Source: a virus (Duplodnaviria > Heunggongvirae > Uroviricota > Caudoviricetes). Taken from it: a stretch of DNA of 36,127 bases. Position 1 is the stretch's first letter. Every line of letters begins with the position of its first letter. Location of the stretch: positions 1 to 36,127 of the IMG/VR virus record IMGVR_UViG_2627854066_000004; one strand, given 5' to 3'. The position numbers and the translations under genes were made by a program. Below are positions 2,880-36,127 of the stretch, piece by piece. The notes under the pieces are model-generated. The model was not told the origin of the DNA. It did not search any database and worked only from the letters and a program-made list of their open reading frames with translations.

Positions 2880-3083
2880 ATGGCAATTAAGCGATTTACC
2901 GTCGTTCGTTTCACTTCCAGAGGACGTGAATACGAAGTTGACGAACGGCTGATTAAAACGCTCGACCGTCACCGTTCGCAACCTGACGCGCATCACATTT
3001 ATCTCACCGACGACACTTACTTCTGCGCCACCAACGTGGTGCAGGTGAACCTTATCCGACAGGTACAGGAGTCACGCAGATGA
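2880..3083 (+). CDS. hypothetical early protein
   Basis: 67 aa with a strong AGGAGG RBS. Confidence 0.55.
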   Translation: MAIKRFTVVRFTSRGREYEVDERLIKTLDRHRSQPDAHHIYLTDDTYFCATNVVQVNLIRQVQESRR

Positions 3084-10982: not shown

Positions 10983-11406
10983 TTTTTTTGAACGACTTTT
11001 TGCCCTTCCGGCCCGCGTGGCGGCTGGATCCGTCAAGGATCCGTGCGTGCACAAAAAAACGCGTTTTTTCTGCGCGCAGGTGACGGGGGAACAGCCCGCG
11101 TTTCAGGGGGTAAATAGCATCCCCTGAACGATGTCGCAGCAACACAACAGAATGGCTGTATTTCTCACGCTGAGCGTGAAAAAGACGTGAGGGCTTTTGA
11201 TTTGATGGGGTGGCAGATAAGGCCGTCAAAATCGCACTGAGGCGGCGAGAACATGCAGTCAGCGCGATGGGATTGCGTAAGAGCCTGACCGTCGATGATG
11301 GCAATAAGCTGGAAGACGTCGTGAAATTATCTGATTGATACAGGAGCTGGAGAGTCGGGGCATAAATTTTTTATGCCCCGGCGAAGCAGCAGACAAGCGA
11401 AGCGCG

Positions 11407-14203: not shown

Positions 14204-14357
14204 TGCTCCCCCTGAGTAATTACAGGAAGATTACCCGCGCGCGAAACCGTTCTCCTTAACCCCCTGTTCTGGCCGTTTTCTTACAACAAAAGCCCTTTGT
14301 ATCAGCCTGTTACGCTTTGCCATCATGACTGAAGAACCAGTCAGAGGGGCAAAAACT
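14204..14357. promoter_or_regulatory. divergent late-promoter region between P and O
   Basis: 154-bp gap between divergently transcribed packaging and head operons; promoter elements were not resolved. Confidence 0.35.
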
Positions 14358-15194
14358 ATGACTAATGAAAAAAAGACATCCCGCAAAAAGTTTCGCGTGG
14401 CTGTCTCCGGTGTGACGGCAGACGGGCGCGAAATCAACGGCGACATGCTGAAAGCTGCCGCCACCAGTTATAACCCGTCCGTTTATGGTGCACGTGTGAA
14501 TATTGAGCACATCCTGTCACCACTCCCCGGCAGCGAGTTTTCCGCTATGGGCGATGTTGTGGGGTTGAGCACCGAAGACATAACCGATGGCCCGCTGGCA
14601 GGCCGCACGGCACTGTATGCCGAAATTGAGCCGACCGCTCGCATGATGTCCCTGCTTAACGATGGTAAAAAAATTTACTCCAGTATTGAGCTGGAACCAC
14701 AGTCAACCATCACGGGAGGCCCTTACCTGCGCGGGCTGGCAATGACCGACACCCCCGCCAGCCTGGGCACGGAACGTCTGGCCTTTGCGGCACAACAACG
14801 TATGCAACTGATGACATTCAACTGTCAGCAGGGAGACGTGGCGATGTTTACCGCCGCTATGGAGTCAGAACTTATCGAACTCACCGAACAACGTCAGGAA
14901 GAAGGCACCCAGTGGTTTAACCGCGTTATGGGGATTATTGGCCGTGGCCGCAAAGCGGATGACGCCAGTTTCTCCCGTATTCAGGAAGCGGTGGAAGGTG
15001 TCGCAACATCACAGGCCGACATTATCGACCGTTTTAATGCACTGGAAACCCGCCATCAGCAGGACAGCCAGAAAATCACTTCGCTGACCACAGAGCTGAC
15101 AGCACTGAAGGAAAAACTGCGCACGCAGGACGGCGATCCGCAGAACCGGTTCACCGCAACGGGCGCAGCCTCCGACCAGCTGGCTGACTTCTGA
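14358..15194 (+). CDS. O: capsid scaffolding protein, P2 gpO family
   Basis: 278 aa from ATG 14358 with a GAGGGG RBS; first gene of the rightward head operon. Confidence 0.8.
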   Translation: MTNEKKTSRKKFRVAVSGVTADGREINGDMLKAAATSYNPSVYGARVNIEHILSPLPGSEFSAMGDVVGLSTEDITDGPLAGRTALYAEIEPTARMMSLLNDGKKIYSSIELEPQSTITGGPYLRGLAMTDTPASLGTERLAFAAQQRMQLMTFNCQQGDVAMFTAAMESELIELTEQRQEEGTQWFNRVMGIIGRGRKADDASFSRIQEAVEGVATSQADIIDRFNALETRHQQDSQKITSLTTELTALKEKLRTQDGDPQNRFTATGAASDQLADF

Positions 15195-22088: not shown

Positions 22089-22689
22089 TTCACTGTTACC
22101 ACCATCAGCCAGCAATTTCATGCGTTGTGCCGAAGCCGTCGGAACACGCATTACAGACATTCCGGTAGACCTCAACACGCTGTGGTCGCCGGACACCTGC
22201 CCGGTGCATCTGCTGCCTTATCTCGCCTGGGCGTTTTCCGTTGACCGCTGGGATCGCAACTGGCCGGAAGAGACAAAGCGACAGGTAATTCGTGATGCAT
22301 GGCTGATACACCGACACAAAGGGACCATCAGCGCACTGCGAAGAGCCGTGGAGCCTCTCGGCTACCTGATTGAAGTAAAGGAGTGGTGGCAACTCAACGA
22401 GGAGCCAGGAACATTTCGCATTGTTGTCGGAGTACTTGATCAGGGCATCACCGATGAAATGTATCAGGAACTTGAGCGCCTTATTGCGGATGCAAAACCA
22501 GTAAGTCGCCATCTGACGGGGCTGGCGATCAGCCTGAGTGTGAACGGAAAGATTTTCGTTGGTACGGGATGCTATCACGGCGATGCCCTGACGGTTTATC
22601 CCTACACCCCGGAGTCCATTATTGTCGAAGGGGATTATTTCCCTGCCCCGGCCATTCATTTAATTGATAATCTGAGAGTAAACGCATGA
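22081..22689 (+). CDS. I: baseplate protein, P2 gpI family
   Basis: 202 aa from ATG 22081, overlapping the J stop. Confidence 0.8.
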   Translation: MSNSLLPPSASNFMRCAEAVGTRITDIPVDLNTLWSPDTCPVHLLPYLAWAFSVDRWDRNWPEETKRQVIRDAWLIHRHKGTISALRRAVEPLGYLIEVKEWWQLNEEPGTFRIVVGVLDQGITDEMYQELERLIADAKPVSRHLTGLAISLSVNGKIFVGTGCYHGDALTVYPYTPESIIVEGDYFPAPAIHLIDNLRVNA

Positions 22690-24299
22690 CAGTGAAATAC
22701 TACGCCATTCTGACTAATCAGGGCGCAGCACGACTGGCTAACGCGACGATGCTCGGCAGTAAGCTGAATCTGACGCAAATGGCCGTTGGTGATGCAAATG
22801 GTGTGTTACCAACACCAGACCCTGCACAAACAAAACTGATTAACCAGAAACGCATTGCACCGCTGAATCTTCTGAGTGTTGACCCTAACAATCAGAGCCA
22901 GATTATTGCGGAGCAAATCATCCCTGAAAACGAGGGAGGATTCTGGATCCGTGAGATTGGTCTTTATGATGATGAAGGTGTACTCATTGCGGTGGCAAAC
23001 TGCCCGGAAACGTACAAACCGCAGTTGCAGGAAGGCAGTGGACGCACCCAGACTATCCGCATGATTCTGGTTGTCACGAACACCGAAGCCATCACGCTGA
23101 AAATCGACCCGTCTGTGGTTCTGGCAACCCGCAAATATGTGGATGATAAAATCTCAGAGCACGAACAGTCACGACGTCACCCAGACGCCTCGCTGACCGT
23201 AAAAGGTTTTACTCAGTTAAGCAGTGCAATTAACAGTGAATCAGAAACACTGGCCGCAACACCGAAAGCGGTTAAGGCTGCATATGACCTGGCTAACGAG
23301 AAATATACCGCCCAGAACGCCACCACTACACAAAAAGGGATTGTTCAGCTCAGTAGCGCCACGAACAGCACGTCTGAAACACTGGCAGCGACACCAAAAG
23401 CTGTTAAGGCGGTAATGGATGAAACGAACAAGAAAGCACCATTAAACAGCCCGGCACTGACCGGAACGCCAACAACACCAACAGCGGCACAGGGGACTAA
23501 TAGTACCCAGATCGCAAGCACGGCTTTCGTTATGGCCGCGATTGCCGCACTTGTAGACTCGTCACCTGATGCACTGAACACGCTGAACGAACTGGCTGCG
23601 GCGCTGGGCAATGACCCGAATTTTGCGACCACCATGACTAACGCGCTTGCGGGTAAGCAACCGAAGGATGCCACCCTGACGGCGCTGGCGGAGCTTGCTA
23701 CATCAGCAGATAAACTCCCATATTTTACAGGGGCAGATCGTGCCGCGTTAACCGCGTTGACAAGTGTTGGACGTGCCATTCTTGGCAAAACCAGCACTCA
23801 GGGAGTTCTTGATTACCTTGGTTTAGGAGAAGGCTCTGCACTGCCCGTTGGTGTGCCCGTTCCGTGGCCCTTAGCAACACCACCAACGGGCTGGCTGAAA
23901 TGTAACGGTGCAGCATTTTCTTCTGAAATGTACCCCAATCTGGCAAAAGCCTACCCCACCAATAAATTACCGGATTTACGGGGCGAATTTATTCGTGGCT
24001 GGGATGATGGGCGAGGAATTGATGCAGCACGCGCTTTATTGAGCATTCAAACCGGGATGTTGGAAAAACACCGCCATATTGTTGTAGCTAACGATGGATA
24101 TGACACAAAGGATGAATGGGAGTTGGCCACGATTTTCAAAAAAACATATACACAAGGCAGGGGGCTTGATGCCACAAATACAGGAGGGAGTTTGATTCCA
24201 TCACCAACGCTTCATTCACGAGGAAGTATTGGTAACACAGGTGGTAGTGAAACCCGCCCCCGCAATATTGCATTTAACTATATCGTGAGGGCGGCTTAG
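22686..24299 (+). CDS. H: tail fibre protein, P2 gpH / Mu S family, with a constant N-terminal part and an exchangeable C-terminal segment
   Basis: 537 aa; the C-terminal part from ...LGLGEGSALPVGVPVPWP... onward is shared at its start with three inverted downstream cassettes; conserved C-terminus RPRNIAFNYIVRAA. Confidence 0.85.
   Translation: MTVKYYAILTNQGAARLANATMLGSKLNLTQMAVGDANGVLPTPDPAQTKLINQKRIAPLNLLSVDPNNQSQIIAEQIIPENEGGFWIREIGLYDDEGVLIAVANCPETYKPQLQEGSGRTQTIRMILVVTNTEAITLKIDPSVVLATRKYVDDKISEHEQSRRHPDASLTVKGFTQLSSAINSESETLAATPKAVKAAYDLANEKYTAQNATTTQKGIVQLSSATNSTSETLAATPKAVKAVMDETNKKAPLNSPALTGTPTTPTAAQGTNSTQIASTAFVMAAIAALVDSSPDALNTLNELAAALGNDPNFATTMTNALAGKQPKDATLTALAELATSADKLPYFTGADRAALTALTSVGRAILGKTSTQGVLDYLGLGEGSALPVGVPVPWPLATPPTGWLKCNGAAFSSEMYPNLAKAYPTNKLPDLRGEFIRGWDDGRGIDAARALLSIQTGMLEKHRHIVVANDGYDTKDEWELATIFKKTYTQGRGLDATNTGGSLIPSPTLHSRGSIGNTGGSETRPRNIAFNYIVRAA
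23806..23831 (+). repeat. recombination site for the DNA invertase (gix/hix-like) inside H
   Basis: TTCTTGATTACC-TT-GGTTTAGGAGAA, 26 bp with a central TT dinucleotide and half-sites resembling Hin/Gin sites; the inner arm and about 200 bp downstream are repeated in inverted orientation at 25367-25392, 25884-25909 and 26362-26387. Confidence 0.6.
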
Positions 24300-24305
24300 T
24301 TATAT

Positions 24306-24917
24306 TCAACTGGCTGCTGCCAGTGGTATTTCCGGCAAGTTGATATCTGGTGCCATGTTTATATCCATTGCGTTCAGCGCGTCTATATAATCCAGCACGG
24401 CGTTAAGCCGGGTGGTTTCTGCCTGCGTCAACTTCCGCCCGGCCTGCAACTTCAACTGAATCAGACTTATGGAAGCCATTGCCGCATCAGCCAGTGACTG
24501 GCGCTTGGTTTCTGCCGCTTCTACTGCGGCACTATGTTGTGCCTCAGTATCTGTCACCCATTTTTCACCATCCCATTTATCGTATGGTGTTGACGGGGAG
24601 ATAGTGGTTGTATTTTTCGGGTAGTCACCTAGCGTCGTGATTTCTTCGGTGTTTCCCGTGTCAGTGTTATAGACGGTTTCACCACGATGATCTGGCGTAT
24701 ACTCCCATGAATTTAAATTCTCCGAACGGCGGATAGCATAGCCCGCTTTATGTGCGCCCGGGGCATCTAAACAGGAATTTGCCGGAATACCGACACCCGC
24801 AGCAAGATATTCAGTTGATTCGGAAATATATTCCCGTGTCTCACCATCATAGTTATAAACGACGATGTTTCCTGCCTGTACGGCAATAAGGTCATCATTT
24901 AATATCGCGTTATTCAT
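24306..24917 (-). CDS. tail fibre assembly protein (P2 gpG / Mu U family)
   Basis: 203 aa on the minus strand, translationally coupled to cassette 1 and convergent with the current H C-terminus. Confidence 0.8.
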   Translation of the reverse strand: MNNAILNDDLIAVQAGNIVVYNYDGETREYISESTEYLAAGVGIPANSCLDAPGAHKAGYAIRRSENLNSWEYTPDHRGETVYNTDTGNTEEITTLGDYPKNTTTISPSTPYDKWDGEKWVTDTEAQHSAAVEAAETKRQSLADAAMASISLIQLKLQAGRKLTQAETTRLNAVLDYIDALNAMDINMAPDINLPEIPLAAAS

Positions 24918-25392
24918 TATGCGGTTCTCACAATATAATTGAAGGCAATATTGCGTGGGCGGGTTTCATTCCCCTCTGAGGATTCCGTTCTGTATTGACT
25001 GGTAAATCTACCGTTAATTGCACCTTGCCGGACGGCGTTATCTGTCGACAACAGACTATCCCCGCCTTTGTCATTTGGCACCAGTACCGTGTTATCCCAC
25101 GCATCCCATGACCGAATATTATGATAATGACTTCCTGTTAACCACCCCTGCATGCTTAAGATGACCCTTCCGGCATCCACCCCGCGCCCATCATCCCAGC
25201 CACGGATAAATTCACCGCGTAAGTCTGGTAATTTATTGGTGGGGTAAGCCATTGCCAGTCTGGGATACATTTCAGAAGAAAATGCTGCGCCGTTACATTT
25301 CAGCCACCCCGTTGGCGGCGTGGCTGAGGGCCATGGAACAGGTACACCAACGGGCAGTGCAGAGCCTTCCCCCAAACCAACGTTTTCATGCT
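24917..25392 (-). other. promoterless alternative tail-fibre C-terminal cassette 1 with its crossover site
   Basis: Minus-strand reading frame starting in the crossover sequence (GEGSALPVGVPVPWPSATPPTGWLKCNGAAFSSEMYP...) and ending ...NIAFNYIVRTA; no start codon or RBS of its own. Confidence 0.7.
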
Positions 25393-25909
25393 GCTCTTAC
25401 GATGTAATTAAACGCAATGTTGCGTGGGCGGTTTTCGTTTGCAGTTGGAACAATTCTTGAAGCATCAAGGCCAATCACTTTTGGGTAAACAGTGCCATCT
25501 GTTCTTTCAGTCACCATACTTCTGATTAAGGAGAAATAACTATTGTTCGTTGAGGGACTCAAAGGCACCACTGCCCCCTTAAATGAGCCTACTGATTCCC
25601 ATATTGAATAATTTTCGGTGTTTACAGTCTTGAACTCACCATAGATATTACGTATGGCATCACCTTGAGCGGATAATATTGTTCTCCCCGCATCCACACC
25701 ACGTCCGTCATCCCAACCACGGATAAATTCACCGCGTAAATCCGGTAATTTATTGGTGGGATAAGCCTTTGCCAGTTTTGGGTACTTTTCAGAAGAAAAT
25801 GCTGCTCCGTTGCATTTCAGCCATCCCGTTGGCGGTGTTTCTAAGGGCCACGGAACGGGTACACCAACGGGCAGTGCAGAGCCTTCCCCCAAACCAACGT
25901 TTTCATGCT
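25386..25909 (-). other. promoterless alternative tail-fibre C-terminal cassette 2 with its crossover site
   Basis: Same conserved 5' block and 3' end (...NIAFNYIVRAA) with a different middle; its stop codon lies inside the crossover site of cassette 1. Confidence 0.7.
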
Positions 25910-26387
25910 GCCCTTACGATGTAATTAAACGCAATGTTATGGGGGCGTGTTTCAGATGCTGTGCGAACTGAGCGAGAGGCGTCGAATGTCCATACAGAAG
26001 CACCATATCCTTCAATGATCTCAGTTGGTTGTAAGCCTACTGATAATATAGAGTCAGTTTGACTAAATGGTCCTGAATTAAGCGCATCTTTAAAAAGCTG
26101 AGTACGCCCAAAAGTGCCAACTATATTCTGAATAGCGTCAGACTGTGCAGACAGTAGGTTGCGCCCATTATCAACGCCCCGTCCGTCATCCCAGCCGCGA
26201 ATAAATTCGCCCCGTAAATCCGGTAATTTATTGGTGGGGTAGGCCTTTGCCAGATTGGGGTACATTTCAGAAGAAAATGCTGCGCCGTTACATTTCAGCC
26301 ACCCCGTTGGCAGCGTGGCTGAGGGCCATGGAACGGGCACACCAACGGGCAGCGCAGAGCCTTCCCCCAAACCAACGTTTTCGTCTT
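25903..26387 (-). other. promoterless alternative tail-fibre C-terminal cassette 3 with its crossover site
   Basis: Same conserved ends with a third variable middle; its crossover site 26362-26387 is next to the invertase gene. Confidence 0.7.
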
Positions 26388-26441
26388 TATCCCTACCTAT
26401 ACCAACTATGTATTTTTCACGAAACAAAAAGGATGTTTTTT

Positions 26442-27041
26442 ATGCAAATTGGCTATATTCGTGTGTCAACAAATGACCAGAACACGGATTTACAACGCAA
26501 TGCACTGAACTGCGCAGGATGTGAACTGATTTTTGAAGATAAAATCAGCGGAACGAAATCAGCCAGACCGGGATTGAAAAAACTGCTCAGAACGCTATCA
26601 GAAGGAGATACGCTGGTTGTCTGGAAGCTGGACAGACTGGGCAGAAGTATGAAACACCTGATCACGTTTATTGAGGAATTGCGGAAAAAAGGTGTTAATT
26701 TCCGTAGTCTGACGGACAGCATTGACACATCAACACCCATGGGGCGTTTCTTTTTTCACGTCATGGGGGCTTTAGCCGAAATGGAACGTGAATTAATTGT
26801 AGAGCGTACACTGGCCGGGCTGGCAGCAGCACGCGCACAAGGACGCATTGGCGGACGTCGCCCGAAGTTGACAAAAGAACAACACGAGCAAATAGCGAGG
26901 CTGATTAAAAACGGTCATGACAGGAAACAACTGGCGATCATTTACGACATCGGCATATCGACGATTTATCGTTATCACCCTGTAGGCGATATACAGGCTG
27001 AAGAAACAACCAGGCAGACTCAGGAAAATGAAAACCGCTAA
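26442..27041 (+). CDS. site-specific DNA invertase, serine recombinase of the Hin/Gin/Cin/Pin family
   Basis: 199 aa; N-terminus MQIGYIRVSTNDQNTDLQ with the catalytic Ser, and a C-terminal HTH (GISTIYRY); AAGGA RBS. Confidence 0.9.
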   Translation: MQIGYIRVSTNDQNTDLQRNALNCAGCELIFEDKISGTKSARPGLKKLLRTLSEGDTLVVWKLDRLGRSMKHLITFIEELRKKGVNFRSLTDSIDTSTPMGRFFFHVMGALAEMERELIVERTLAGLAAARAQGRIGGRRPKLTKEQHEQIARLIKNGHDRKQLAIIYDIGISTIYRYHPVGDIQAEETTRQTQENENR

Positions 27042-27059
27042 TCTGACCATTAGCGGTTT
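27032..27059. terminator. bidirectional stem-loop between the convergent invertase and U genes
   Basis: AAACCGCTA-N10-TAGCGGTTT with T-runs on both strands. Confidence 0.5.
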
Positions 27060-27067
27060 TGCGTTAA

Positions 27068-27562
27068 TCAAAACAGCCCTTTAACGGAGCTGGCCGCGCT
27101 GTTAAGGGATGATGTGACCTTATCTTTGAAGCCGGACAGCATATCACTGAACGATGAGGATTGCAGGCGCTCCCGCAAATCCTCATCACAGCGTTCAAGA
27201 GTCAGTGAAAATTCTATCTTTTTCGCCTTACCGTAGCGATCAAACTCGGAGCGGGTCGTATTCGTTTCAGTCAGTACATACATGCCGTAAATCTGCCCGA
27301 CACCATCAATCAGAGGCCAGGGGCGTCCTGTATATGCCTGCGTGGTCAGCAGCGAAAGCGACACTTCGCCACCTGTAATTTCAGGATAAAGCACGCCAGA
27401 AAGCACGATGCGATCATCACCTGCACCGATATACTGCCAGCTTGCTGAGCGGTTTACGCGCTCATTTTTCACATGCCGCCAGCTTTTGTTTTGCTGTAAC
27501 TGCTGATGCGGCAGTGTGCGCAGCTCAAAAACAAACATGCCGTAGATCATCATCATGGCCAT
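27068..27562 (-). CDS. U: tail protein, P2 gpU family
   Basis: 164 aa, last gene of the minus-strand tail block. Confidence 0.75.
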   Translation of the reverse strand: MAMMMIYGMFVFELRTLPHQQLQQNKSWRHVKNERVNRSASWQYIGAGDDRIVLSGVLYPEITGGEVSLSLLTTQAYTGRPWPLIDGVGQIYGMYVLTETNTTRSEFDRYGKAKKIEFSLTLERCDEDLRERLQSSSFSDMLSGFKDKVTSSLNSAASSVKGLF

Positions 27563-27568
27563 GACTCC

Positions 27569-30412
27569 TCAATCTTTATCGTAAAAACTGCCACGCCCGG
27601 CACGGGCGCGCCGTTCCGTTTCTGCCCTGACCATTTCACCGACCAGTTTCGCCAGTTCGCGGGGATTCTGCGTAACAACGTTATGCAGATGAACATGAAT
27701 TTCACCACCAAATCCGGAGGCAACAGGCTCCCGGTTACGGGAAGTTACAGGAACTGATGCCACTGGAGATCGTATGGCCTCCGCCACCGGGCGGGAGCTG
27801 GCCGCAACAACAGGGACCAGCGCCGGAGGCAGCGGAGCCGGGACCACGGGGGTGATATTAATTGCGGGGGCAGGCTTACCGACCTGCGCAATCTTCCGCT
27901 CCTGCCACTCCCCACGAACAGCAAGTGCGCGGGGCAGGTTCTTAAAGACAATATCGCCGGGGCCAATGCGTTTTTTCGTCTCATCAACCAGCTTACCTGT
28001 GTTATCAGCAATTTTGCTGAGTCTGCGTAGTGTACCGGTATTGCTGTCTGTGAGCGGTTTGTTGTCTTTGGGTTTATCACCTCCGGTGCCATTGCCATTT
28101 TCCACAGGCTTCGGCGGATTGATTTTCGCCAGGTCCCCCTGAAGCAAGGCAACCTTGTCCTGAAGAATGGCCGCACGCTGTGCGTCTTCGATTTTCTTTC
28201 TCGCCCTTTCCGCTTCATCCGGAAGCACACCGAGTTTTTCAAGTATCCACGCCAGCGTATCCAGCAACATTTTTGCGGGCGTCAGAACAAGCTGTAACGC
28301 ACCGCCAAGAACGTTACCGAATATCTCGCCAGCACTGGTACATTTATCCAGCGTTTCCTTGCTGGACTCCATCGGTGACAGCAGCGATTTAAACCAGTTA
28401 AACACCTGACTTATCCCGCTTCCGATTGCGTCAAAAACAGGACCAAACCGTTCAAAGGTTTCGCGCAACGGAGCCAGCCGTTCCATAATCCCACTGAACA
28501 CCCCGGCATAAAACGCCTTGATGGGTTCCCAGTATTTCCAGATGAGAACCGCCGCAGCCACAAACGCGGCAACAATCAATCCGACCGGACTGAACAGCGC
28601 CCCGATAGCGCCACCCAGCAACGAGATGGAACCTGTTACCATTCCCCATAGTGCTGGCAGCACCCTGACGACATTCATTGATCCTGTCAGGAGGGAAAAA
28701 CCAAGACGCAGTTTTGCCAGCGGACCAGCAAGCACACCAATAGCCAGCGACAACGAGCCAATCGTTGCAGTCATTGCCAGCAACGCACCGCCTGCAATCA
28801 GTAGCTGGCGCGTCAGTGCAGGATGCGCCTGCGCCAGCGCCGTCACCTTTGAGACCACCTTCGTCAGCCACTGCGTGACAGAACGCAGCGGACCGTCAAT
28901 CAGATCGGCAATGCGGATACGCAGCCCTTCCCATGCACTGCCGAGTGATTTCAGATCGCCGTCAAGGTTGTTGGCCATAACCTTTGCCGTGCGTTCAGCC
29001 TCACCGCGCGCGCCTTCAAGTTCTTTTCTCAGTTTAGGTAAGGAGCCGTCACCTGCCGCATCAACGAGGGCCATAAATGATGTGAAAGCCTCTTCTCCGG
29101 CAATGTCCTTAAAGAACGATACCCGGTCAACTTCCCCGTATTTGCGGGTGGCTTTATAAAGGTCGGCCAGCAAATCCTCCATCGGGCGCATTTTGCCGTT
29201 CGCATCAGAGACGGACACGCCCAGCTCTTTCAGAGCTTCTGCCGCCGCCTTTGGCGGTGATGCCAGACGAGCCAGGCTGGCACGCATTGCCGTCCCGGCA
29301 TCACTCCCTCTGATACCCATATTCGCCAACACGCCAGCCATCGCTGCGGCCTGCTCCAGCGATATTCCCAGCTTACCCGCTACCGGACCTGCATATTTCA
29401 TGGTTTCGCCCAGTGCGCGAAGGTCAGTGTTGGTACGGGTAAACGCTGCGGTGAGTGTGTCACCGACCCGGTCCATCTGGTCAGCAGAAAGGCCGAACTG
29501 CGTCAGGATGTTTGAGCCAATATCCGCCGTCTCGCCGAGATCCATACCGCCAGCCGTTGCCATGCTCAGCACACCGGGAAGCGCAGCCTGAATGGCCTGT
29601 GGTGTGAAGCCAGCCATTGCAAGAAATGCCTGTCCACTGGCGGCATCTCCAGCGGTGAACTGCGTTTCAGAGCCAAGTTTTAACGCCTGCTCACGCAGCG
29701 CCTTAAACTGCGGGCTGTTCTGGTCGATTCGCGTCAGCGCCTGAACGCGGGACATCTCTTTCCCGAACCCGATCGCAGGCTGCAAAAAACGCCCGGCAGC
29801 ATAGCCGCCCGCCGCTACCGCACCAATTGCCAGCGCACCACCTGTTTTCAGTTTTTCCGCTGTTTCCTGCGCGCGCGAATACCGCTCACGCGCCCGCGTT
29901 ACACGCGCAAGCGCCTGCCGTTCGCGTTCAAGCTGGTTGTTGTATTGTTCGGTGCGTCTGATGGCCTGCTGGATGGTGTTATCGCTGCCTGTCAGGGAAA
30001 TGCCGTGGCGTTTCAGCTCTCCGCCAAGCTCCCGCATTTTCTGAATTTCCCGTGTGCGCGATTCATTCAGGCGTTCAAGCCGGGTGCTTAACTGCTGCAT
30101 CAGCTTTTGTTGTTTTTCGCTGAGCACTGTCCCCGTGCGTTGTAACTGATTAAGGGCGTTAAGCTGGCGTCGTGCTTTCACGATGCCCGCATCCGCTTTA
30201 CTGACAGCGTCACGGGCGCGCTCAAATGAACGCGCCTGACGCTCGAGATTTTTGATCGCCCCCTGCGTTCGCTGGATGGAGTCACCAAACTGCCCCATCA
30301 GGCGGCGGGCGTTTTCGGCAGGCCGGGTCAGCCTGTCAACGGCGCTGAAAGCGACCCGGATATCAAGAGTCTTCATTGTCTGCATTCCCGCTGCGAAGTG
30401 CCGCCCGCTCAC
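27569..30412 (-). CDS. T: tail tape measure protein, P2 gpT family
   Basis: 947 aa, Ala/Gly-rich with coiled regions and hydrophobic segments; start uncertain (GTG at 30412 or internal ATGs at 30385 or 30376). Confidence 0.85.
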   Translation of the reverse strand: MSGRHFAAGMQTMKTLDIRVAFSAVDRLTRPAENARRLMGQFGDSIQRTQGAIKNLERQARSFERARDAVSKADAGIVKARRQLNALNQLQRTGTVLSEKQQKLMQQLSTRLERLNESRTREIQKMRELGGELKRHGISLTGSDNTIQQAIRRTEQYNNQLERERQALARVTRARERYSRAQETAEKLKTGGALAIGAVAAGGYAAGRFLQPAIGFGKEMSRVQALTRIDQNSPQFKALREQALKLGSETQFTAGDAASGQAFLAMAGFTPQAIQAALPGVLSMATAGGMDLGETADIGSNILTQFGLSADQMDRVGDTLTAAFTRTNTDLRALGETMKYAGPVAGKLGISLEQAAAMAGVLANMGIRGSDAGTAMRASLARLASPPKAAAEALKELGVSVSDANGKMRPMEDLLADLYKATRKYGEVDRVSFFKDIAGEEAFTSFMALVDAAGDGSLPKLRKELEGARGEAERTAKVMANNLDGDLKSLGSAWEGLRIRIADLIDGPLRSVTQWLTKVVSKVTALAQAHPALTRQLLIAGGALLAMTATIGSLSLAIGVLAGPLAKLRLGFSLLTGSMNVVRVLPALWGMVTGSISLLGGAIGALFSPVGLIVAAFVAAAVLIWKYWEPIKAFYAGVFSGIMERLAPLRETFERFGPVFDAIGSGISQVFNWFKSLLSPMESSKETLDKCTSAGEIFGNVLGGALQLVLTPAKMLLDTLAWILEKLGVLPDEAERARKKIEDAQRAAILQDKVALLQGDLAKINPPKPVENGNGTGGDKPKDNKPLTDSNTGTLRRLSKIADNTGKLVDETKKRIGPGDIVFKNLPRALAVRGEWQERKIAQVGKPAPAINITPVVPAPLPPALVPVVAASSRPVAEAIRSPVASVPVTSRNREPVASGFGGEIHVHLHNVVTQNPRELAKLVGEMVRAETERRARAGRGSFYDKD

Positions 30413-30901
30413 GCCAGCTAACCACTTCGCCGGGCGTCATCATGAAGATTTCGGCGGGCGACCAGTTAAAAATGGCGGCGATATCTGCCACCAGATCTTC
30501 GATGTGCTCAAAGCACACCAGGGTGATTACGCTGCCGTCTCCTGCACGCTCTTCGCGCCAGAGTCTGGCTCGCTCATAAAATTTACAGCCACAGCGCACA
30601 ACTGAATAAAATCGCGTGACGACATTTTTTTAATCATCACTTCATCCAGTCGCGGTGATGTCACGCGTGACAGCAGCGTAAACATGGATTCCGCTTTCAG
30701 ATTCAGCACATCAGACAGCGACAGACCACGCAGGGATCCAGCCTGTTCAATAGCCCCGGTGATCTCCACATACGTGATTTTTTCGCCACCACGCTCAATT
30801 GGTCGGGTCAGTTTTACGCCACGTTCGACAGCCATATCCTCACCTGCCGTCACATCATCCACCACGGTGTTATTCCGGGTTTCAGTATCGATGTCTTTCA
30901 T
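30363..30901 (-). CDS. tail assembly chaperone E+E' fusion made by programmed -1 frameshift
   Basis: Seven-A run on the coding strand (plus-strand T-run 30625-30631); the -1 frame continues open to 30363 and overlaps the T start, as for P2 E/E' and lambda G/GT. Confidence 0.6.
30527..30901 (-). CDS. E: tail assembly chaperone, P2 gpE family
   Basis: 124 aa with an AAGGAG RBS; contains the A7 slippery run near its 3' end. Confidence 0.7.
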   Translation of the reverse strand: MKDIDTETRNNTVVDDVTAGEDMAVERGVKLTRPIERGGEKITYVEITGAIEQAGSLRGLSLSDVLNLKAESMFTLLSRVTSPRLDEVMIKKMSSRDFIQLCAVAVNFMSEPDSGAKSVQETAA

Positions 30902-30956
30902 CAGTTTTCTCCTTTTCAGTCAGAGGCGACGCACTGCGCCGCCTGCATATTACTTA

Positions 30957-31469
30957 TCAGCCAAGCCCGAGCGCGGAACGGATACGGTCAGGCACAATGT
31001 CCTTGCCGTCCTTCCGGTAGATGTGGTTCAACAGGTCGATTTCCCACAGCGGGCGATCGTTAACGCTCAGCTTGTAGTAGGTGTTTTTGACAGCGTAAGT
31101 GTGTGATGTGGCTTCGCCCTGTTTGGCTTCCCCCATATCAATTTCCGTCACACGTCCGCGCATCTCGATTTCATACAGATCGCTTTCTGCATCGGTGTAG
31201 TATTCACCCGCAAAACGCAGCAGCGTGCCGTCAATCGTGCCGCCATATTTAAGGAACAGCGCACGAACAGCTCCCCCCATGACAAAACTCGCATCAAGCG
31301 CGGAGTCGTCCAGACCGAGATCAATACTTACCGCCCCCATCATGCCACCACCACGATAGCTGTCGGTTTTGCGCGTCAGTTTGGGCGGCGTGACGGATGT
31401 CACTTTACCCACTTCGTTTTCACCATCCACAAACAACGTAAAAAAGCGAAGATGTTTTGGTACAGCCAT
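30957..31469 (-). CDS. FII: tail tube protein, P2 gpFII family
   Basis: 170 aa immediately downstream of the sheath gene, with ATGA coupling. Confidence 0.85.
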   Translation of the reverse strand: MAVPKHLRFFTLFVDGENEVGKVTSVTPPKLTRKTDSYRGGGMMGAVSIDLGLDDSALDASFVMGGAVRALFLKYGGTIDGTLLRFAGEYYTDAESDLYEIEMRGRVTEIDMGEAKQGEATSHTYAVKNTYYKLSVNDRPLWEIDLLNHIYRKDGKDIVPDRIRSALGLG

Positions 31470-32653
31470 CAGGCACCTCCCAGCACCGCAAATGCGGGAC
31501 CAAAGAATTCATCAGTAAACGTCTGGTAAAGCTCCATGTCTTCCAGCGGGGGAACAGGCGTATATTTGTAGCGAATACGCACACGTCCCTGACGTAAATT
31601 CGTGGTGCCGTTATCCACCACGTCATACCAGCACTCCGCACCAATCAGTTTCCCGGCAGTAACCAGCGAATCCAGTTTTGCCCTGATGGCGCTGATAACA
31701 TCCTTCACGTTCGCAGGTGTCAGTGGACTGTCGATGGTTTCAAACTGCGCTTCCGCAATTGAATCAGCCAGCACCTGTGCGGTTCGGGTATACACCTCAA
31801 AGATGTAGGCGTTCGTTTCCGGTGTGCGGTTGCCCCAGAAGCGGAACCCGTTGCGACGAATAATGGTCGTGATTTCTTTGTTGTTGAGACTGTTGGCATC
31901 GCTGTCTTCGGCCTGCAACGACCAGAACACATGCCTGGACATCCCCAGCACATTTTTAACCGGAACGTTGGACAGCGATTTGTGCCAGCCCTGTTCATGG
32001 TCAATGTACGCACGAAGGCCGCACGCATAGGCAGGCGCGGGGAACGTTTCGTTTTCGCCACTTTTCGGGTTGTAGGCGATGAAGTCCGGCCATAAGAGCA
32101 TCACTTCACGTTCGTTGAATTTCTGGCGGTAGGTAATCGCTTCAGCCATCGTGTTACAGCCGTGACATGAGGCATACACAAATGCGCGCAGTTTACCCGC
32201 AATCACGCACAGGGATTTTGTCACCGCCTCCGTGTCCAGCTCCGGCGCGGCCAGAATACGCGGACGGTATCCGATGCTTTCATCCTGCTCTGCAACAAGC
32301 AGCGCATACATCCCCGTATAGCTGCCGTCATCCTCAGAACCACCGATAACCAGTTGATCCTGCGTCTTTTCGTCTTCTTCTTTGTGTTCAGCCACGCGAA
32401 CGACGATCACCTTTGTGCTCACCTGGTCTGCGATGGCCTTAAGCGCACGATAAAGCGTCCCCGTTGTTCCGCATTTTCCCAGCACGTCATTGACGCGGGT
32501 CAGCAGTGTGGGCTTGTTCAGCGGGAACAGCTTCGCGTCCGCATCATCCGCCGTTGCCACGATACCGATAACGCTGGAATCAACATCGTTAATCGCTGTT
32601 ACCAGGTCGGTATTTTCCGTAACACGGGCACCATGAAAACGAGTTTCACTCAT
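31469..32653 (-). CDS. FI: tail sheath protein, P2 gpFI family
   Basis: 394 aa, first gene of the minus-strand tail block. Confidence 0.9.
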   Translation of the reverse strand: MSETRFHGARVTENTDLVTAINDVDSSVIGIVATADDADAKLFPLNKPTLLTRVNDVLGKCGTTGTLYRALKAIADQVSTKVIVVRVAEHKEEDEKTQDQLVIGGSEDDGSYTGMYALLVAEQDESIGYRPRILAAPELDTEAVTKSLCVIAGKLRAFVYASCHGCNTMAEAITYRQKFNEREVMLLWPDFIAYNPKSGENETFPAPAYACGLRAYIDHEQGWHKSLSNVPVKNVLGMSRHVFWSLQAEDSDANSLNNKEITTIIRRNGFRFWGNRTPETNAYIFEVYTRTAQVLADSIAEAQFETIDSPLTPANVKDVISAIRAKLDSLVTAGKLIGAECWYDVVDNGTTNLRQGRVRIRYKYTPVPPLEDMELYQTFTDEFFGPAFAVLGGA

Positions 32654-32810
32654 AGCTTCAGCCCCTTGTATCCGTTAAATGATTCGGCAACAATCATCAC
32701 CCACCACGCGCGTAATCTCACCCCTGCGCCGTTCTCCCGCCACGGCGACAACAAAAAGCAGTAACCCCCTCCGCACGCACATGCGACCATGCCACACAGG
32801 GAGGGAGCAG

Positions 32811-33920
32811 ATGACCGACACCACCATGCAATTGCTCAGTCAAGGCACAGACCCTGTAAAAATGCCGGATTTTGATATTCTCGCGGAGGGTAAAACGCTG
32901 TCCGGCGTGGCAGAGCGCCTGATGAGCCTGTCGCTGACCGACAACCGGGGATTTGAGGCAGACCAGCTCACCATCACGCTGGATGATGCGGATGGTCAGT
33001 TGCAGCTACCGCCACGGGGCGCGCGCCTGAAGGTTCTCATTGGCTGGAAAGGCGAACCGCTGACAGAAAAAGGCACTTACATTGTTGATGAAATCGCTCA
33101 CGAAGGACCGCCGGACAGGCTGACTGTTTCGGCCAGAAGCGCAGATTTTCGGGATGAATTTAACGTTAAACGTGAGGTGTCCTGGCATGATGTGACCGTT
33201 GAGCGTGTGGTATCCGCCATCGCTCATCGGTATGGTCTGAAACCGCAAATCAGCGAAATGCTGATGGATATCGAAATCGACCACGCCGACCAGACCGAAG
33301 AAAGCGACATGTCCTTCCTTACGCGCATGGCGGAAATGCTGGGCGCAATCACCACGGTAAAAAGCGGCAATCTGTTATTCATCATGCCAGGTGGTGGCGT
33401 GAACGCACAGGGCCAGCCGTTGCCCTCGTTCGCCATTACACGCAGCAGCGGCGATCGCCATCAGTTCCGTATTGCTGACCGCGAGGCTTATACGGGGGTA
33501 CGCGCCTACTGGCTTGATCTTAATTACGGGAAAAAGAAAAAAGTCAGCGTAAAACGCCGTAAACCGCCAAAACCCAAAAAGGAGAAAAGCAGCAGCCGTG
33601 AAGGTGATTATATGGAAGGCGCGGAAGGCAATGTGTTTGTGTTACGCAAGACTTATCAGAACGAGCAGGCAGCAAGACGCGCAGCGGCGGCAAAGTGGCA
33701 GCAGCTACAACGCGGAGCCGCAGCGTTCTCCATCACGCTGGCGCGTGGACGTGCAGAACTCTACCCCGAAATGCATGGCACGGTAACAGGATTTAAAAGC
33801 GAGATTGATAATCAGGACTGGATTATTGCAAAAGCGGAGCACTCTATTGATAACAGTGGCTTTACCACGCAGCTTGAGCTTGAAGCAAAAATCCCGGAAT
33901 GGATAGCAGAAACAGAGTGA
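32811..33920 (+). CDS. D: tail protein D (P2 gpD family)
   Basis: 369 aa from ATG 32811 with a GGGAGGGAG RBS; followed by ogr as in P2. Confidence 0.8.
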   Translation: MTDTTMQLLSQGTDPVKMPDFDILAEGKTLSGVAERLMSLSLTDNRGFEADQLTITLDDADGQLQLPPRGARLKVLIGWKGEPLTEKGTYIVDEIAHEGPPDRLTVSARSADFRDEFNVKREVSWHDVTVERVVSAIAHRYGLKPQISEMLMDIEIDHADQTEESDMSFLTRMAEMLGAITTVKSGNLLFIMPGGGVNAQGQPLPSFAITRSSGDRHQFRIADREAYTGVRAYWLDLNYGKKKKVSVKRRKPPKPKKEKSSSREGDYMEGAEGNVFVLRKTYQNEQAARRAAAAKWQQLQRGAAAFSITLARGRAELYPEMHGTVTGFKSEIDNQDWIIAKAEHSIDNSGFTTQLELEAKIPEWIAETE

Positions 33921-33962
33921 GCAACTTAGAATAGCGGCAGCACCACGTTAAGGGAGGTCGCT

Positions 33963-34223
33963 ATGTTCCGTTGTCCGCTTTGTGGCGCATCTGCCCGTAT
34001 CCGCACCAGTCGTCCGGAAAATGATTCAAACACCGTGCGGCAAAAGTATTACCAGTGTAACAATCTGGAATGCGGCGTATGCTTCTCAACACTGGAAGCT
34101 TTCCATAAATTCACATCGAAACATGCCTCCGGCGTTCACTCTTCAGAAGGTATCCCGTGGCATGAGCTGCCAGCTTCACACAGGGGAAACAATCAGATGA
34201 GCTTGCCTTTATCTCAGAATTAA
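33963..34223 (+). CDS. ogr: late-gene transcription activator, Ogr/Delta zinc-finger family
   Basis: N-terminus MFRCPLCGASARIRTSR...YYQCNNLECGVCF with four Cys in the Ogr arrangement. Confidence 0.8.
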   Translation: MFRCPLCGASARIRTSRPENDSNTVRQKYYQCNNLECGVCFSTLEAFHKFTSKHASGVHSSEGIPWHELPASHRGNNQMSLPLSQN

Positions 34224-34413
34224 CAGGCAGAATTGCCGGAGTAACAAAAAAGCGATAGATTACGCGCGGGTGCCTTTCGGCTGATGGTCGGAGGGAATAC
34301 CCGAAGGCCGGATGTGGAAAGGCCCCGGAAAACATTTCTGTTTAACCGAGGCCCTAACCGCATTACCTTGACAAGTGAAAGGTTAGCGCCTCTCCGGAAA
34401 AGGAGCAAGTGCT

Positions 34414-34554
34414 ATGTCGCAAAAATCGCTTACGGCCATCACGTTCTGCGTGACGGCAATCCTCATCATCTGGATGCTGCATGGTTCGCTGTGCGAAATA
34501 CGGATGAGCTTCTGGGGAGCGGAGTTTGCGGCGTTCTTACAGTGTAAGCAGTAA
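34414..34554 (+). CDS. Hok/Gef-family type I toxin-like small membrane protein
   Basis: 46 aa (MSQKSLTAITFCVTAILIIWMLHGSLCEIRMSFWGAEFAAFLQCKQ): N-terminal TM helix, then the SLCEIR and AAF motifs seen in Hok/Gef; AAAGGAG RBS. A longer out-of-frame ORF (34284-34547) overlaps it in a mok-like manner. Confidence 0.55.
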   Translation: MSQKSLTAITFCVTAILIIWMLHGSLCEIRMSFWGAEFAAFLQCKQ

Positions 34555-34689
34555 GGAAACCGCGACGGGGGAGCAATCCCCCGTCAATCGGTTGCCAGGG
34601 TATGGTCGAAGTGGCACCCAAATTTAAATTGAGGCCCACCAGTAAGAGTGGTGGGTTTAACGCTTATTTAAATTTGAAAGGAACTCTTT

Positions 34690-34986
34690 ATGAGTGAAAT
34701 GGTATTTTGTCGCGGATGCGGCAAGGAAATACATAAAGATGCCACATCCTGCCCCAATTGTGGAGCACCTCAAAGAACAGCAAGTTCAAAAAGCAGAATG
34801 ACAGCCGCACTACTGGCTTTCTTTTTAGGTGGTCTTGGTGCACACAAATTTTATTTAGGTAAAGTGGGGCAAGGATTCCTTTACCTTATTTTTTGCTGGA
34901 CATTCATTCCGGCAATCGTGGCATTTATTGAGTTTTTTATCTATCTATGCACCTCTGATGAAGACTTTGCCCGCAAATATGGCTAA
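34690..34986 (+). CDS. zinc-ribbon plus TM2-domain membrane protein
   Basis: 98 aa; CRGCG...CPNCG zinc ribbon followed by two hydrophobic helices (AALLAFFLGGLGAHKFYLG...). Confidence 0.6.
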   Translation: MSEMVFCRGCGKEIHKDATSCPNCGAPQRTASSKSRMTAALLAFFLGGLGAHKFYLGKVGQGFLYLIFCWTFIPAIVAFIEFFIYLCTSDEDFARKYG

Positions 34987-35012
34987 TGCCTAGTGGGCGA
35001 ATCAGAATGACA

Positions 35013-35047
35013 AACCCGCAGCGTAAAAACTGCGGGTTTTCTTTTTG
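35013..35047 (+). terminator. rho-independent terminator
   Basis: ACCCGCAG-CGTAAAAA-CTGCGGGT followed by TTTTCTTTTTG. Confidence 0.65.
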
Positions 35048-35096
35048 TCACCCTCACAAATGAGGGTAACACCACTCATAAGTAATAGGCATAACA

Positions 35097-35131
35097 GATC
35101 GATGCAATAAATCCGATCGATAAAAACGATC
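35097..35131. promoter_or_regulatory. cluster of three GATC (Dam) sites within GATCGAT repeats upstream of the com-like gene
   Basis: GATC at 35097, 35115 and 35128, each in the context CGATCGAT, 50-80 bp upstream of the com-like start. Confidence 0.45.
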
Positions 35132-35178
35132 GATTTGTTATCATATCGGCAGCAGTAACCACACAAGAGGTGCCGCAA

Positions 35179-35376
35179 ATGACGCAAAATGTACGATGCA
35201 AAAATTGCAACAAACTACTTGCCCGCGCCTCATTTCACTACATTGAAATAAAATGTCCGCGCTGCAAAACACTTAACCAGATAACGAGAGCCATCGAGCA
35301 CCCCACACACATGAGGAGTTATGACCGTGGGGATCGCAATCCAGCACCAACCAGCACATACACCGGAACACACTAA
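35179..35376 (+). CDS. com: Com-like zinc-finger protein (phage Mu Com family translational regulator)
   Basis: 65 aa; RCKNCNKLL...IEIKCPRCK matches the Mu Com zinc finger nearly residue for residue as recalled; AGAGG RBS; the 3' end overlaps the downstream methyltransferase start. Confidence 0.7.
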   Translation: MTQNVRCKNCNKLLARASFHYIEIKCPRCKTLNQITRAIEHPTHMRSYDRGDRNPAPTSTYTGTH

Positions 35377-36127
35377 GGTTTATCAGACTGACAATGCCAC
35401 GCTCTGTCGTGGGAATGCGCTGGAAATATTGCCGCTGATTGAGCCAGAAAGCATTGATGCCTTAATCACTGACCCGCCTTACAGTTCGGGTGCGACACAC
35501 AAGGCCGGACGCACCAACCAAGGCAGCCATGCAAAATATCTGAACGGCGAGAACCTTCACCGCTTTGATGGGTTCGCGGGTGAAAACATGGACGCCCGTT
35601 CGTGGGCTTACTGGACACAATTATGGATGGCACAGGCACACCGCGCAGTCAGGCCGGGCGGTTATGCCCTGGTATTTACTGACTGGCGACAACTACCAGC
35701 TTTAACCGATGCGTTTCAGGCCAGCGGCTTTACATGGCGCGGCATCATTGCGTGGAACAAGGGGAGGGGGTCACGAACACCCCATACGGGGTATTTCAGG
35801 CATCAGTGCGAATACATCGTCTGGGGCAGCAAAGGCCATTTAGATAAATCGCCTTCGGGGCCGTTCGACGGCTGCATGACGTACCCGGTTATCCCGTCAA
35901 AGAAAATGCACCCGACCGGAAAACCAGAAGAACTAATGGCGGAACTGGTCAGGACTGTGAATAGTGGCGGAACAGTCCTTGATCCTTTTATGGGGTCAGG
36001 GACAACGGGTGTGGCTGCACTGAAAGCAGGGCGAAAATTTATTGGTATAGAAACCAGTGATCATTATTTTGAGGTAGCAGCGCAGCGGCTTCGGGGGACT
36101 ATTACCACAACCATTTCGGCTACATAA
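35321..36127 (+). CDS. DNA methyltransferase, beta-class amino-MTase (N6-adenine or N4-cytosine)
   Basis: 268 aa; catalytic motif ITDPPYS near the N-terminus and the AdoMet-binding motif DPFMGSGTTGVAA near the C-terminus (motif IV before motif I). Stop codon is the last three bases of the window. Confidence 0.85.
   Translation: MTVGIAIQHQPAHTPEHTKVYQTDNATLCRGNALEILPLIEPESIDALITDPPYSSGATHKAGRTNQGSHAKYLNGENLHRFDGFAGENMDARSWAYWTQLWMAQAHRAVRPGGYALVFTDWRQLPALTDAFQASGFTWRGIIAWNKGRGSRTPHTGYFRHQCEYIVWGSKGHLDKSPSGPFDGCMTYPVIPSKKMHPTGKPEELMAELVRTVNSGGTVLDPFMGSGTTGVAALKAGRKFIGIETSDHYFEVAAQRLRGTITTTISAT

What the first reader, a model, noticed from the sequence alone, without database searches (positions are those of the whole stretch)
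27042..32810. Tail gene block FI-FII-E-T-U is inverted relative to H, D and ogr
In P2, as I recall it, FI, FII, E, T, U, D and ogr are all transcribed in the same direction as the baseplate and fibre genes. Here FI through U are on the minus strand, so FI starts divergently from D (32653 versus 32811) and U ends convergently with the invertase gene (27068 versus 27041), while D and ogr keep the canonical orientation. The block is internally intact (including the E/E' frameshift site) and sits right next to the invertase and its recombination sites. This could be a large inversion (invertase-mediated at a secondary site, or otherwise), a lineage-specific arrangement, or an assembly artefact. 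If real, FI and D need separate promoters.
Basis: partly seen in the sequence, partly recalled or inferred. Interest (0 to 1): 0.6.

Follow-up and report, generated by a model that had tools for sequence, protein, structure and literature searches.

The report
Normal gene order of P88-like phages
The "inverted" tail-gene block is real, but it is the fixed, normal gene order of a large and very common group of P2-related phages (the P88 / Xuanwuvirus group), not a flip by the neighbouring invertase or an assembly error. The sheath operon and gene D probably share one two-way late promoter, as P2's P and O genes do.

Summary
Observation confirmed. U, T, E/E', FII and FI lie on the minus strand (27068-32653). 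The invertase, D and ogr lie on the plus strand.

The arrangement here is the normal state of a lineage:
- It is collinear in the plaque-forming phages P88 and Citrobacter phiSM.
- It is collinear in 1349-1358 of 5426 complete E. coli genomes.
- It occurs in all 29 sampled species genomes, across several Enterobacterales genera, whose D protein is at least 61% identical to this one. Only 3 of those 29 have an invertase nearby.
- All 51 loci with a more distant D (54% or less) show no reversed gene.

The block junctions carry no inverted repeats and no invertase sites. Those sites occur only in the tail-fibre cassettes.

New inference: the 157-bp FI-D spacer holds one Ogr-type dyad (32733-32750). 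A -10-like hexamer sits exactly 34 nt from each edge of the dyad. This copies the mapped geometry of P2's shared P/O late promoter. The D-side hexamer is conserved in 14 of 16 diverged relatives, against 3 of 23 at the equivalent position in canonical phages.

Verdict: an ordinary, lineage-typical arrangement. The promoter model is modestly interesting and untested.

The parts
26443..27041 (+). Serine DNA invertase (Gin/Hin/Cin type). It is convergent with U and is not involved in the orientation of the tail block.
   Evidence: Pfam Resolvase 7.2e-51 + HTH_7; start read from the sequence. Its recombination sites are only in the fibre region.
27031..27060 (.). 12-bp-stem hairpin (AAAACCGCTAAT / ATTAGCGGTTTT) with T-runs on both strands. 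It is a candidate two-way terminator between the invertase stop (27041) and the U stop (27068).
   Evidence: Terminator scan. RNA folds: -16.9 kcal/mol (z -3.0) on the + strand and -18.5 kcal/mol (z -2.2) on the - strand. In many E. coli relatives homology begins just right of it, at about 27062-27066.
27068..27562 (-). gpU tail protein, the last gene of the minus-strand operon
   Evidence: Pfam Phage_P2_GpU 5.5e-39
27569..30412 (-). gpT tape-measure protein (exact start uncertain)
   Evidence: Pfam PhageMin_Tail 7.2e-59
30363..30901 (-). gpE (30527-30901) and the -1-frame E' extension (open 30629-30363). Candidate slippery heptamer A_AAT_TTT at 30584-30578.
   Evidence: Sequence and frames read; weak Phage_TAC_7 hit. 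P88 annotates both ORFs.
30957..31469 (-). gpFII tail tube
   Evidence: Pfam Phage_tube 2.1e-45
31469..32653 (-). gpFI tail sheath, the first gene of the minus-strand operon
   Evidence: Pfam sheath domains
32693..32698 (-). Predicted -10 hexamer of the FI (PF) late promoter, GATGAT. It lies 34 nt beyond the dyad edge. Predicted start site is about 32686.
   Evidence: The same offset carries xAxxxT in 16/16 relatives with this gene order and 23/23 canonical PF promoters. Geometry calibrated on P2's mapped start sites.
32733..32750 (.). Single Ogr/Delta-type activator dyad, TCT-N12-ACA (extended GTTCT-N12-ACAAC, 32731-32752). Its centre is 88.5 nt from the FI ATG and 69.5 nt from the D ATG.
   Evidence: The only other exact GTTCT-N12-ACAAC in the window is in the P/O spacer, 14266-14287. 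Relatives carry TGT-N12-ACA at the same place. The spacing to FI equals that of canonical PF promoters.
32785..32790 (+). Predicted -10 hexamer of a D promoter, GACCAT. It lies 34 nt beyond the other edge of the dyad. Predicted start site is about 32797.
   Evidence: xAxxxT sits at exactly this offset in 14/16 diverged relatives and in 0-3 at the other offsets scored. At the equivalent far side of canonical PF dyads it is 3/23.
32811..33920 (+). gpD (baseplate hub / late control D), separated from the rest of the F operon
   Evidence: Pfam Phage_GPD; 98% identical to P88 D, which is annotated from the equivalent ATG
33963..34223 (+). ogr-type zinc-finger late activator, the presumed protein that binds the dyad
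   Evidence: Pfam Ogr_Delta 5e-14

Best explanation
This is the fixed ancestral gene order of a deep clade of P2-like phages: genus Xuanwuvirus (P88-like) and its relatives across Enterobacterales. At some point the segment [PF promoter-FI-FII-E/E'-T-U] was inverted relative to D-ogr, and the clade has inherited that order ever since. It does not switch, and the adjacent invertase only shuffles the tail-fibre cassettes.

How it is probably expressed is inferred, not shown. The 157-bp FI-D spacer appears to work like P2's P/O control region. One dyad-symmetric Ogr binding site sits about 55 nt upstream of two divergent start sites. Ogr bound there would activate the FI-FII-E-T-U operon leftwards (ending at the hairpin by the invertase stop) and D rightwards (possibly reading on into ogr).
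For: Shown:
- The region from the invertase gene to ogr is collinear at 94-96% identity, with the same strands, in P88, Xuanwuvirus P884B11 and Citrobacter phiSM. P88 and phiSM form plaques (PMC5285337, PMC6456863).
- 1349 of 5426 complete E. coli genomes hold at least 80% of 26480-33920 in one collinear place. The FI/D junction is intact in 1358 of the 1380 genomes with any match.
- In 80 species-representative loci found with a D-protein profile, all 29 with D at least 61% identical have U-T-E-FII-FI reversed relative to D-ogr. The genera include Salmonella, Kluyvera, Kosakonia, Klebsiella, Xenorhabdus, Photorhabdus, Providencia, Morganella, Hafnia, Yersinia and Pectobacterium. None of the 51 with D at 54% or less has any reversed gene. 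Only 3 of the 29 have an invertase hit in the 10 kb upstream of D.
- P2, Fels-2, SEN8 and P. magyaro are canonical.

Supporting the promoter model:
- There is one dyad per FI-D spacer, with its centre 80.5-88.5 nt from the FI ATG. Canonical PF promoters have 79.5-86.5 nt.
- An xAxxxT hexamer lies exactly 34 nt beyond the dyad edge in 23/23 canonical PF promoters, 16/16 on the FI side and 14/16 on the D side. On the unused far side of canonical PF dyads it is only 3/23.
- The P2 RefSeq record annotates one 'activator binding site; pO, pP promoters'. Its dyad centre is 55.5 nt from both mapped start sites.
Against: - No transcript data were available, so the D-side promoter and its dependence on Ogr are inferred from sequence conservation only.
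- The window's dyad has one mismatch to TGT-N12-ACA (TCT), as does its P/O dyad.
- Two of the 16 relatives lack the D-side hexamer at the exact offset. One of them has it 1 nt away.
- The 16 representatives share ancestry, so the counts are not independent trials.
- The 80 loci are the best-scoring of 425, not a full survey. A single origin of the inversion is inferred from the clean split by protein identity, not from a tree.
Confidence: 0.85

Rival explanations
1. The gene order is lineage-typical, but D is not driven by the shared dyad. It has an independent promoter (constitutive sigma-70, or one using an unrecognised site), and the D-side conservation reflects something else, such as a leader or ribosome-binding context.
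For: The sigma-70 consensus scan finds nothing in the spacer, so any promoter there is weak and non-canonical. The window hexamer GACCAT is a poor -10. No expression data exist.
Against: The conserved hexamer sits at exactly the offset used by mapped P2 late promoters. Canonical phages, where nothing is transcribed in that direction, lack it. GACCAT is itself used at that offset in canonical PF promoters (L066, L078, L081). Activator-dependent late promoters are expected to fail a sigma-70 scan.
Confidence: 0.12
2. The block is, or recently was, flipped by the adjacent serine invertase acting at secondary sites, so its orientation is switchable.
For: The invertase gene abuts the block. Such enzymes can use degenerate sites.
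Against: There are no inverted repeats at the junctions. The best 26-mer matches to the four real sites are 13-14 of 26 at both junctions, within the background of 12-17. The junction is invariant in 1358 of 1380 E. coli genomes. The same order is found in 26 of 29 relatives without an invertase. The reported flipping in P88-like prophages concerns only the fibre genes (bioRxiv 10.1101/2022.05.07.487787).
Confidence: 0.02
3. Misassembly of this window.
For: None beyond the difference from P2.
Against: Both junctions are reproduced in independent phage genomes and more than 1300 complete genomes.
Confidence: 0.01

Closest known systems
Escherichia phage P88 and genus Xuanwuvirus (Peduoviridae), including Xuanwuvirus P884B11 and Citrobacter phage phiSM
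   Same: Same gene order and strands from H through the invertase, U-T-E'-E-FII-FI (reversed), D and ogr. DNA identity is 94-96% over the region from the invertase gene to ogr, and about 95% over about 78% of the rest of the genome.
   Different: The fibre C-terminal cassettes, the immunity end and the cargo after ogr differ. This copy has a 1-bp deletion in the terminase gene.
Phage P2 F operon (PF: FI-FII-E-E'-T-U-D, then ogr)
   Same: Same genes, same internal order FI to U, same E/E' -1 overlap, and the same PF-type promoter geometry upstream of FI.
   Different: In P2 the D gene is the last gene of the same transcript, and the U stop abuts the D start. Here D is on the other strand, divergent from FI, so it cannot be part of that transcript.
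Phage P2 PP/PO divergent late promoters with one shared Ogr binding site
   Same: One dyad lies midway between two divergent genes. A -10-like hexamer lies 34 nt beyond each dyad edge, which implies start sites about 55.5 nt from the centre on both sides (for P2; for the window).
   Different: In P2 the start sites are mapped experimentally. Here they are predicted. This second copy of the architecture controls tail genes and exists only in the clade with the reversed block.
Gin/Hin/Cin invertible segments (Mu G, P1 C, Salmonella H)
   Same: A serine invertase next to tail-fibre C-terminal cassettes, with hix/gix-like sites.
   Different: The FI-U block is not part of any invertible segment: it has no flanking sites and no alternative orientation.

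Membership tests
P2-type F tail operon | Homologues of FI, FII, E, T, U and D are present and intact | tested here: met
   Pfam hits for all six. E is weak (E = 9e-4) but in the right position.
P2-type F tail operon | All seven products, including D, are encoded co-directionally in one transcript from PF | tested here: not met
   FI to U are on the minus strand and D on the plus strand. In P2 the operon is annotated as including D.
P2-type F tail operon | E/E' programmed -1 frameshift | tested here: inconclusive
   A -1-frame ORF overlaps the 3' end of E and runs to the T start, and an A_AAT_TTT heptamer is in frame. The slip itself is not testable here.
Genus Xuanwuvirus (P88-like) | High nucleotide identity over most of the genome to P88 (genus level is about 70% identity times coverage) | tested here: met
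   95.2% identity over 78% of bases 1-24000 and 93.8% over 76% of 24000-34400. That is about 0.73 overall by my arithmetic.
Genus Xuanwuvirus (P88-like) | Same module order, including the reversed FI-U block | tested here: met
   Annotated P88 and phiSM regions.
Invertase-controlled invertible segment (applied to the FI-U block) | Inverted recombination sites flanking the segment | tested here: not met
   No inverted repeats at the junctions. Site-like scores at the junctions are at background.
Invertase-controlled invertible segment (applied to the FI-U block) | Both orientations are found among near-identical copies | tested here: not met
   The junction is intact in 1358 of 1380 E. coli genomes with a match.
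P2 PP/PO-type shared-site divergent late promoter | A single TGT-N12-ACA-like dyad lies between divergent late genes | tested here: met
   TCT-N12-ACA at 32733-32750. Relatives have exact TGT-N12-ACA at the same place.
P2 PP/PO-type shared-site divergent late promoter | -10 elements on both sides place start sites about 55 nt from the dyad centre | tested here: met
   GATGAT and GACCAT lie at +35 from either edge. This is conserved 16/16 and 14/16 in relatives, with a control of 3/23.
P2 PP/PO-type shared-site divergent late promoter | An Ogr/Delta-family activator is encoded | tested here: met
   Ogr_Delta zinc finger at 33963-34223.
P2 PP/PO-type shared-site divergent late promoter | Ogr-dependent transcription starts in both directions | not testable with these tools
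   Needs 5'-end mapping or reporter assays.

The most novel reading that the evidence does not exclude
After an ancient inversion split D from the sheath operon, this clade built a mirror-image -10 element on the unused face of the PF activator site. That would create a second P/O-style two-way Ogr-dependent promoter. One activator site would then control both halves of the former F operon, with D-ogr forming a short transcript of its own.
Probability: 0.6. Interest if true: 0.35.

Novelty: new member of a known kind. Interest (0 to 1): 0.2.

Why it matters
It matters little as a rearrangement: this is simply how P88-like phages are built, and they sit in about a quarter of complete E. coli genomes.

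It has two practical uses. The FI/D orientation is a clean synteny marker that separates this clade from other P2-like phages. Annotators and prophage callers should also not treat the arrangement as a rearrangement or a misassembly.

The small biological point is regulatory. The clade seems to show how a symmetric activator site lets an operon be split by inversion with little rewiring, since only a -10 element had to arise on the other side. This is directly testable in P88 or phiSM.

Tried and rejected
- An exact TGT-N12-ACA search found no site in the FI-D spacer. The site is a one-mismatch variant (TCT), found by comparing the spacer with the P/O spacer and with relatives.
- The sigma-70 consensus scan found nothing in the spacer. 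It did find one match at 33783-33812, inside the 3' end of D, which may be an ogr promoter. I did not follow this up.
- Searches for inverted repeats and for hix/gix-like sites at the block junctions were negative.
- The longer D ORF from ATG 32679 was rejected. It has no ribosome-binding site, relatives start at the equivalent of 32811, and it would overlap the promoter region.
- The literature searches (Xuanwuvirus, phage P88, FETUD, bidirectional late promoter, Peduoviridae synteny) found no paper that discusses this inversion. The two P88/phiSM papers do not mention it.
- I did not use the structure, protein-database or RNA tools. Gene identities were unambiguous and the question was one of synteny and regulation.

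Full report
**What is there**

The window is a P2-like prophage or phage genome. It runs from int (1-1023, minus strand) through the replication, head, lysis and baseplate genes to ogr (33963-34223), with some cargo beyond.

In the region of the finding, Pfam identifies these minus-strand genes:
- gpU, 27068-27562
- the tape-measure protein T, 27569-30412
- E, 30527-30901
- the tube protein FII, 30957-31469
- the sheath protein FI, 31469-32653

On the plus strand it identifies a serine invertase (ORF 26247-27041, likely start 26443), gpD (ORF 32679-33920, real start 32811) and ogr.

The E/E' arrangement is intact. A -1-frame ORF is open from 30629 to 30363 and overlaps the end of E, with an A_AAT_TTT heptamer in the E frame at 30584-30578.

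**Is the comparison with P2 right?**

Yes. The P2 RefSeq record annotates a start site 'for F operon; encodes FI, FII, E, E', T, U, D'. All of these genes are on one strand, and ogr and a common terminator follow them. PMC3931495 says the same.

Fels-2, SEN8 and Peduovirus magyaro carry an invertase next to the fibre cassettes, as this window does. They still have invertase, FI-FII-E-E'-T-U-D and ogr all co-directional.

**Is the arrangement a local event?**

No. The region from the invertase gene to ogr aligns in a single collinear piece at 94-96% identity with Xuanwuvirus P884B11, Citrobacter phage phiSM and Escherichia phage P88. Their annotations show the same strands.
- P88 was induced and lyses indicator strains (PMC5285337).
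- phiSM is spontaneously released, forms plaques and lysogenises K-12 (PMC6456863).

The order is therefore compatible with a working phage.

Among 5426 complete E. coli genomes, 1349 hold at least 80% of 26480-33920 in one collinear place. An 801-bp probe across the FI/D junction is intact in 1358 of the 1380 genomes that match it at all. I found no sign of the block in the other orientation.

**How deep does it go?**

I used a profile of four D proteins to fetch 80 loci from species-representative genomes. I then located the window's tail proteins in them by tblastn. The split is clean.
- All 29 loci with D 61-98% identical to the window have U-T-E-FII-FI reversed relative to D-ogr. The genera are Salmonella, Kluyvera, Kosakonia, Enterobacter, Klebsiella, Citrobacter, Xenorhabdus, Photorhabdus, Providencia, Morganella, Rouxiella, Dryocola, Hafnia, Yersinia and Pectobacterium.
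- None of the 51 loci with D 47-54% identical has a reversed gene. Forty show FI to U to D all co-directional. Nine are on short contigs and show U directly upstream of D on the same strand. Two are uninformative.
- FI and U identities split the same way.
- Only 3 of the 29 reversed loci have an invertase hit in the 10 kb upstream of D.

This points to one old inversion inherited by a whole clade. The single origin is my inference, because I built no tree.

**Invertase involvement**

The invertase sites are recognisable. A hix/gix-like sequence (TTCTTGATTACCTTGGTTTAGGAGAA) lies in H at about 23806-23831. Three inverted copies (..GAAAACGTTGGTTTGGGGGAA) head three silent fibre cassettes at about 25380, 25897 and 26375.

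At the two junctions of the FI-U block, the best 26-mer matches to these sites score 13 and 14 of 26. Random 200-bp windows score 12-17. No inverted repeat pairs the two junctions. A preprint on ST131 reports flipping in a P88-like prophage, but only of the fibre genes. The invertase is a neighbour of the block, not the cause of its orientation.

**How FI and D are probably expressed (inferred)**

The exact TGT-N12-ACA motif of P2 late promoters is absent from the spacer. However, the spacer and the P/O spacer share the only two exact copies in the window of GTTCT-N12-ACAAC, at 32731-32752 and 14266-14287. This is TGT-N12-ACA with one mismatch. I derived that pattern from these two sites, so the count is descriptive and not a test.

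The independent test comes from the relatives:
- In 27 of the 29 fetched loci with the reversed order that could be analysed (L015 could not), the FI-D spacer (140-177 bp) holds an exact TGT-N12-ACA. The two Providencia loci have TCT-N12-AGA at the same place. The closest relatives, L006 and L007, carry the window's TCT variant, as do P88 and phiSM. In every case the dyad centre is 80.5-88.5 nt from the FI ATG.
- Canonical PF promoters have their dyad 79.5-86.5 nt from FI. PF therefore travelled with FI when the block was inverted.
- Anchoring on the dyad, a -10-like hexamer xAxxxT begins exactly 35 nt after the dyad edge in 23/23 canonical PF promoters. It does so in 16/16 FI sides and 14/16 D sides of diverged representatives of the reversed clade. 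Other offsets score 0-6.
- As a control, the unused far side of canonical PF dyads shows 3/23 at that offset, which is background.

In the window the hexamers are GATGAT (32693-32698, minus strand) and GACCAT (32785-32790, plus strand).

**Calibration on P2**

The P2 record annotates one 'activator binding site; pO, pP promoters' between the divergent P and O genes. Its dyad (3063-3080) is centred 55.5 nt from both mapped start sites, 3016 and 3127. xAxxxT hexamers lie at +35 on both sides.

A shared-site, two-way, Ogr-dependent promoter is thus the established P/O design. The FI-D spacer of this clade has the same geometry. Applying it gives predicted start sites near 32686 for FI (32-nt leader) and 32797 for D (13-nt leader that contains GGGAGGGAG).

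The minus-strand operon would end at the hairpin at 27031-27060, which overlaps the invertase stop. A weaker candidate lies at 27092-27074.

What remains unshown is that these start sites exist and that they depend on Ogr.

**Verdict**

The feature is real but ordinary. It is the normal architecture of P88-like phages, which are already in RefSeq and extremely common in E. coli. The papers I could search do not comment on the inversion. The promoter inference may therefore be new, but it is a modest variation on a known P2 theme.

Noticed in passing
window 12453-14203 (minus strand), indel near 13886: The terminase large-subunit gene P is split into two ORFs (13790-14203 and 12453-13757). The cause is a 1-bp deletion in a homopolymer run relative to P88. 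This prophage copy may be defective, or the base may be a sequencing error.
   Followed up: partly
window 23806-26440: The invertible fibre region has one active H C-terminus and three silent inverted cassettes (24917-25375, 25386-25892, 25903-26427). Each cassette starts with a Collar domain and a hix/gix-like site. There is only one tail-fibre assembly gene (24306-24917), and it currently points the wrong way. The expressed H (22686-24299) therefore has no chaperone gene downstream.
   Followed up: partly
window 14204-14360: The P/O spacer has the same shared-dyad layout as P2 (dyad 14268-14285). The predicted O start site (about 14332) lies after the first ATG (14325). The scaffold gene O therefore probably starts at the ATG near 14358, as P88 annotates it.
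   Followed up: partly
window about 27062-27066: In many E. coli relatives, homology to the tail block begins just right of the hairpin, immediately before the U stop, and the invertase is absent. This point is therefore a module boundary. O157:H7 copies also carry IS30 or IS3 insertions in the tail block (H52-H57).
   Followed up: no
L002 (OR565851, phiSM) 11024-13475: The deposited annotation labels the sheath gene FI as 'late control gene D protein' and gene D as 'ogr/Delta-like zinc finger'. The phiSM paper describes a long non-contractile tail (Siphoviridae), although the genome deposited under that name encodes a sheath and a tube.
   Followed up: no
L007 (NZ_JBQPOM010000071.1, 'Vagococcus sp. 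WN89Y'): A contig assigned to a Gram-positive genus carries this enterobacterial prophage, with proteins 91-99% identical to the window's. This is probably contamination or a mislabelled assembly.
   Followed up: no
window 34284-36127: The cargo after ogr differs from P88, which has a hok/gef gene there. It comprises an 87-aa ORF with no family, a zinc-ribbon plus TM2-domain protein (34690-34986) and a DNA methylase (35321-36127).
   Followed up: no
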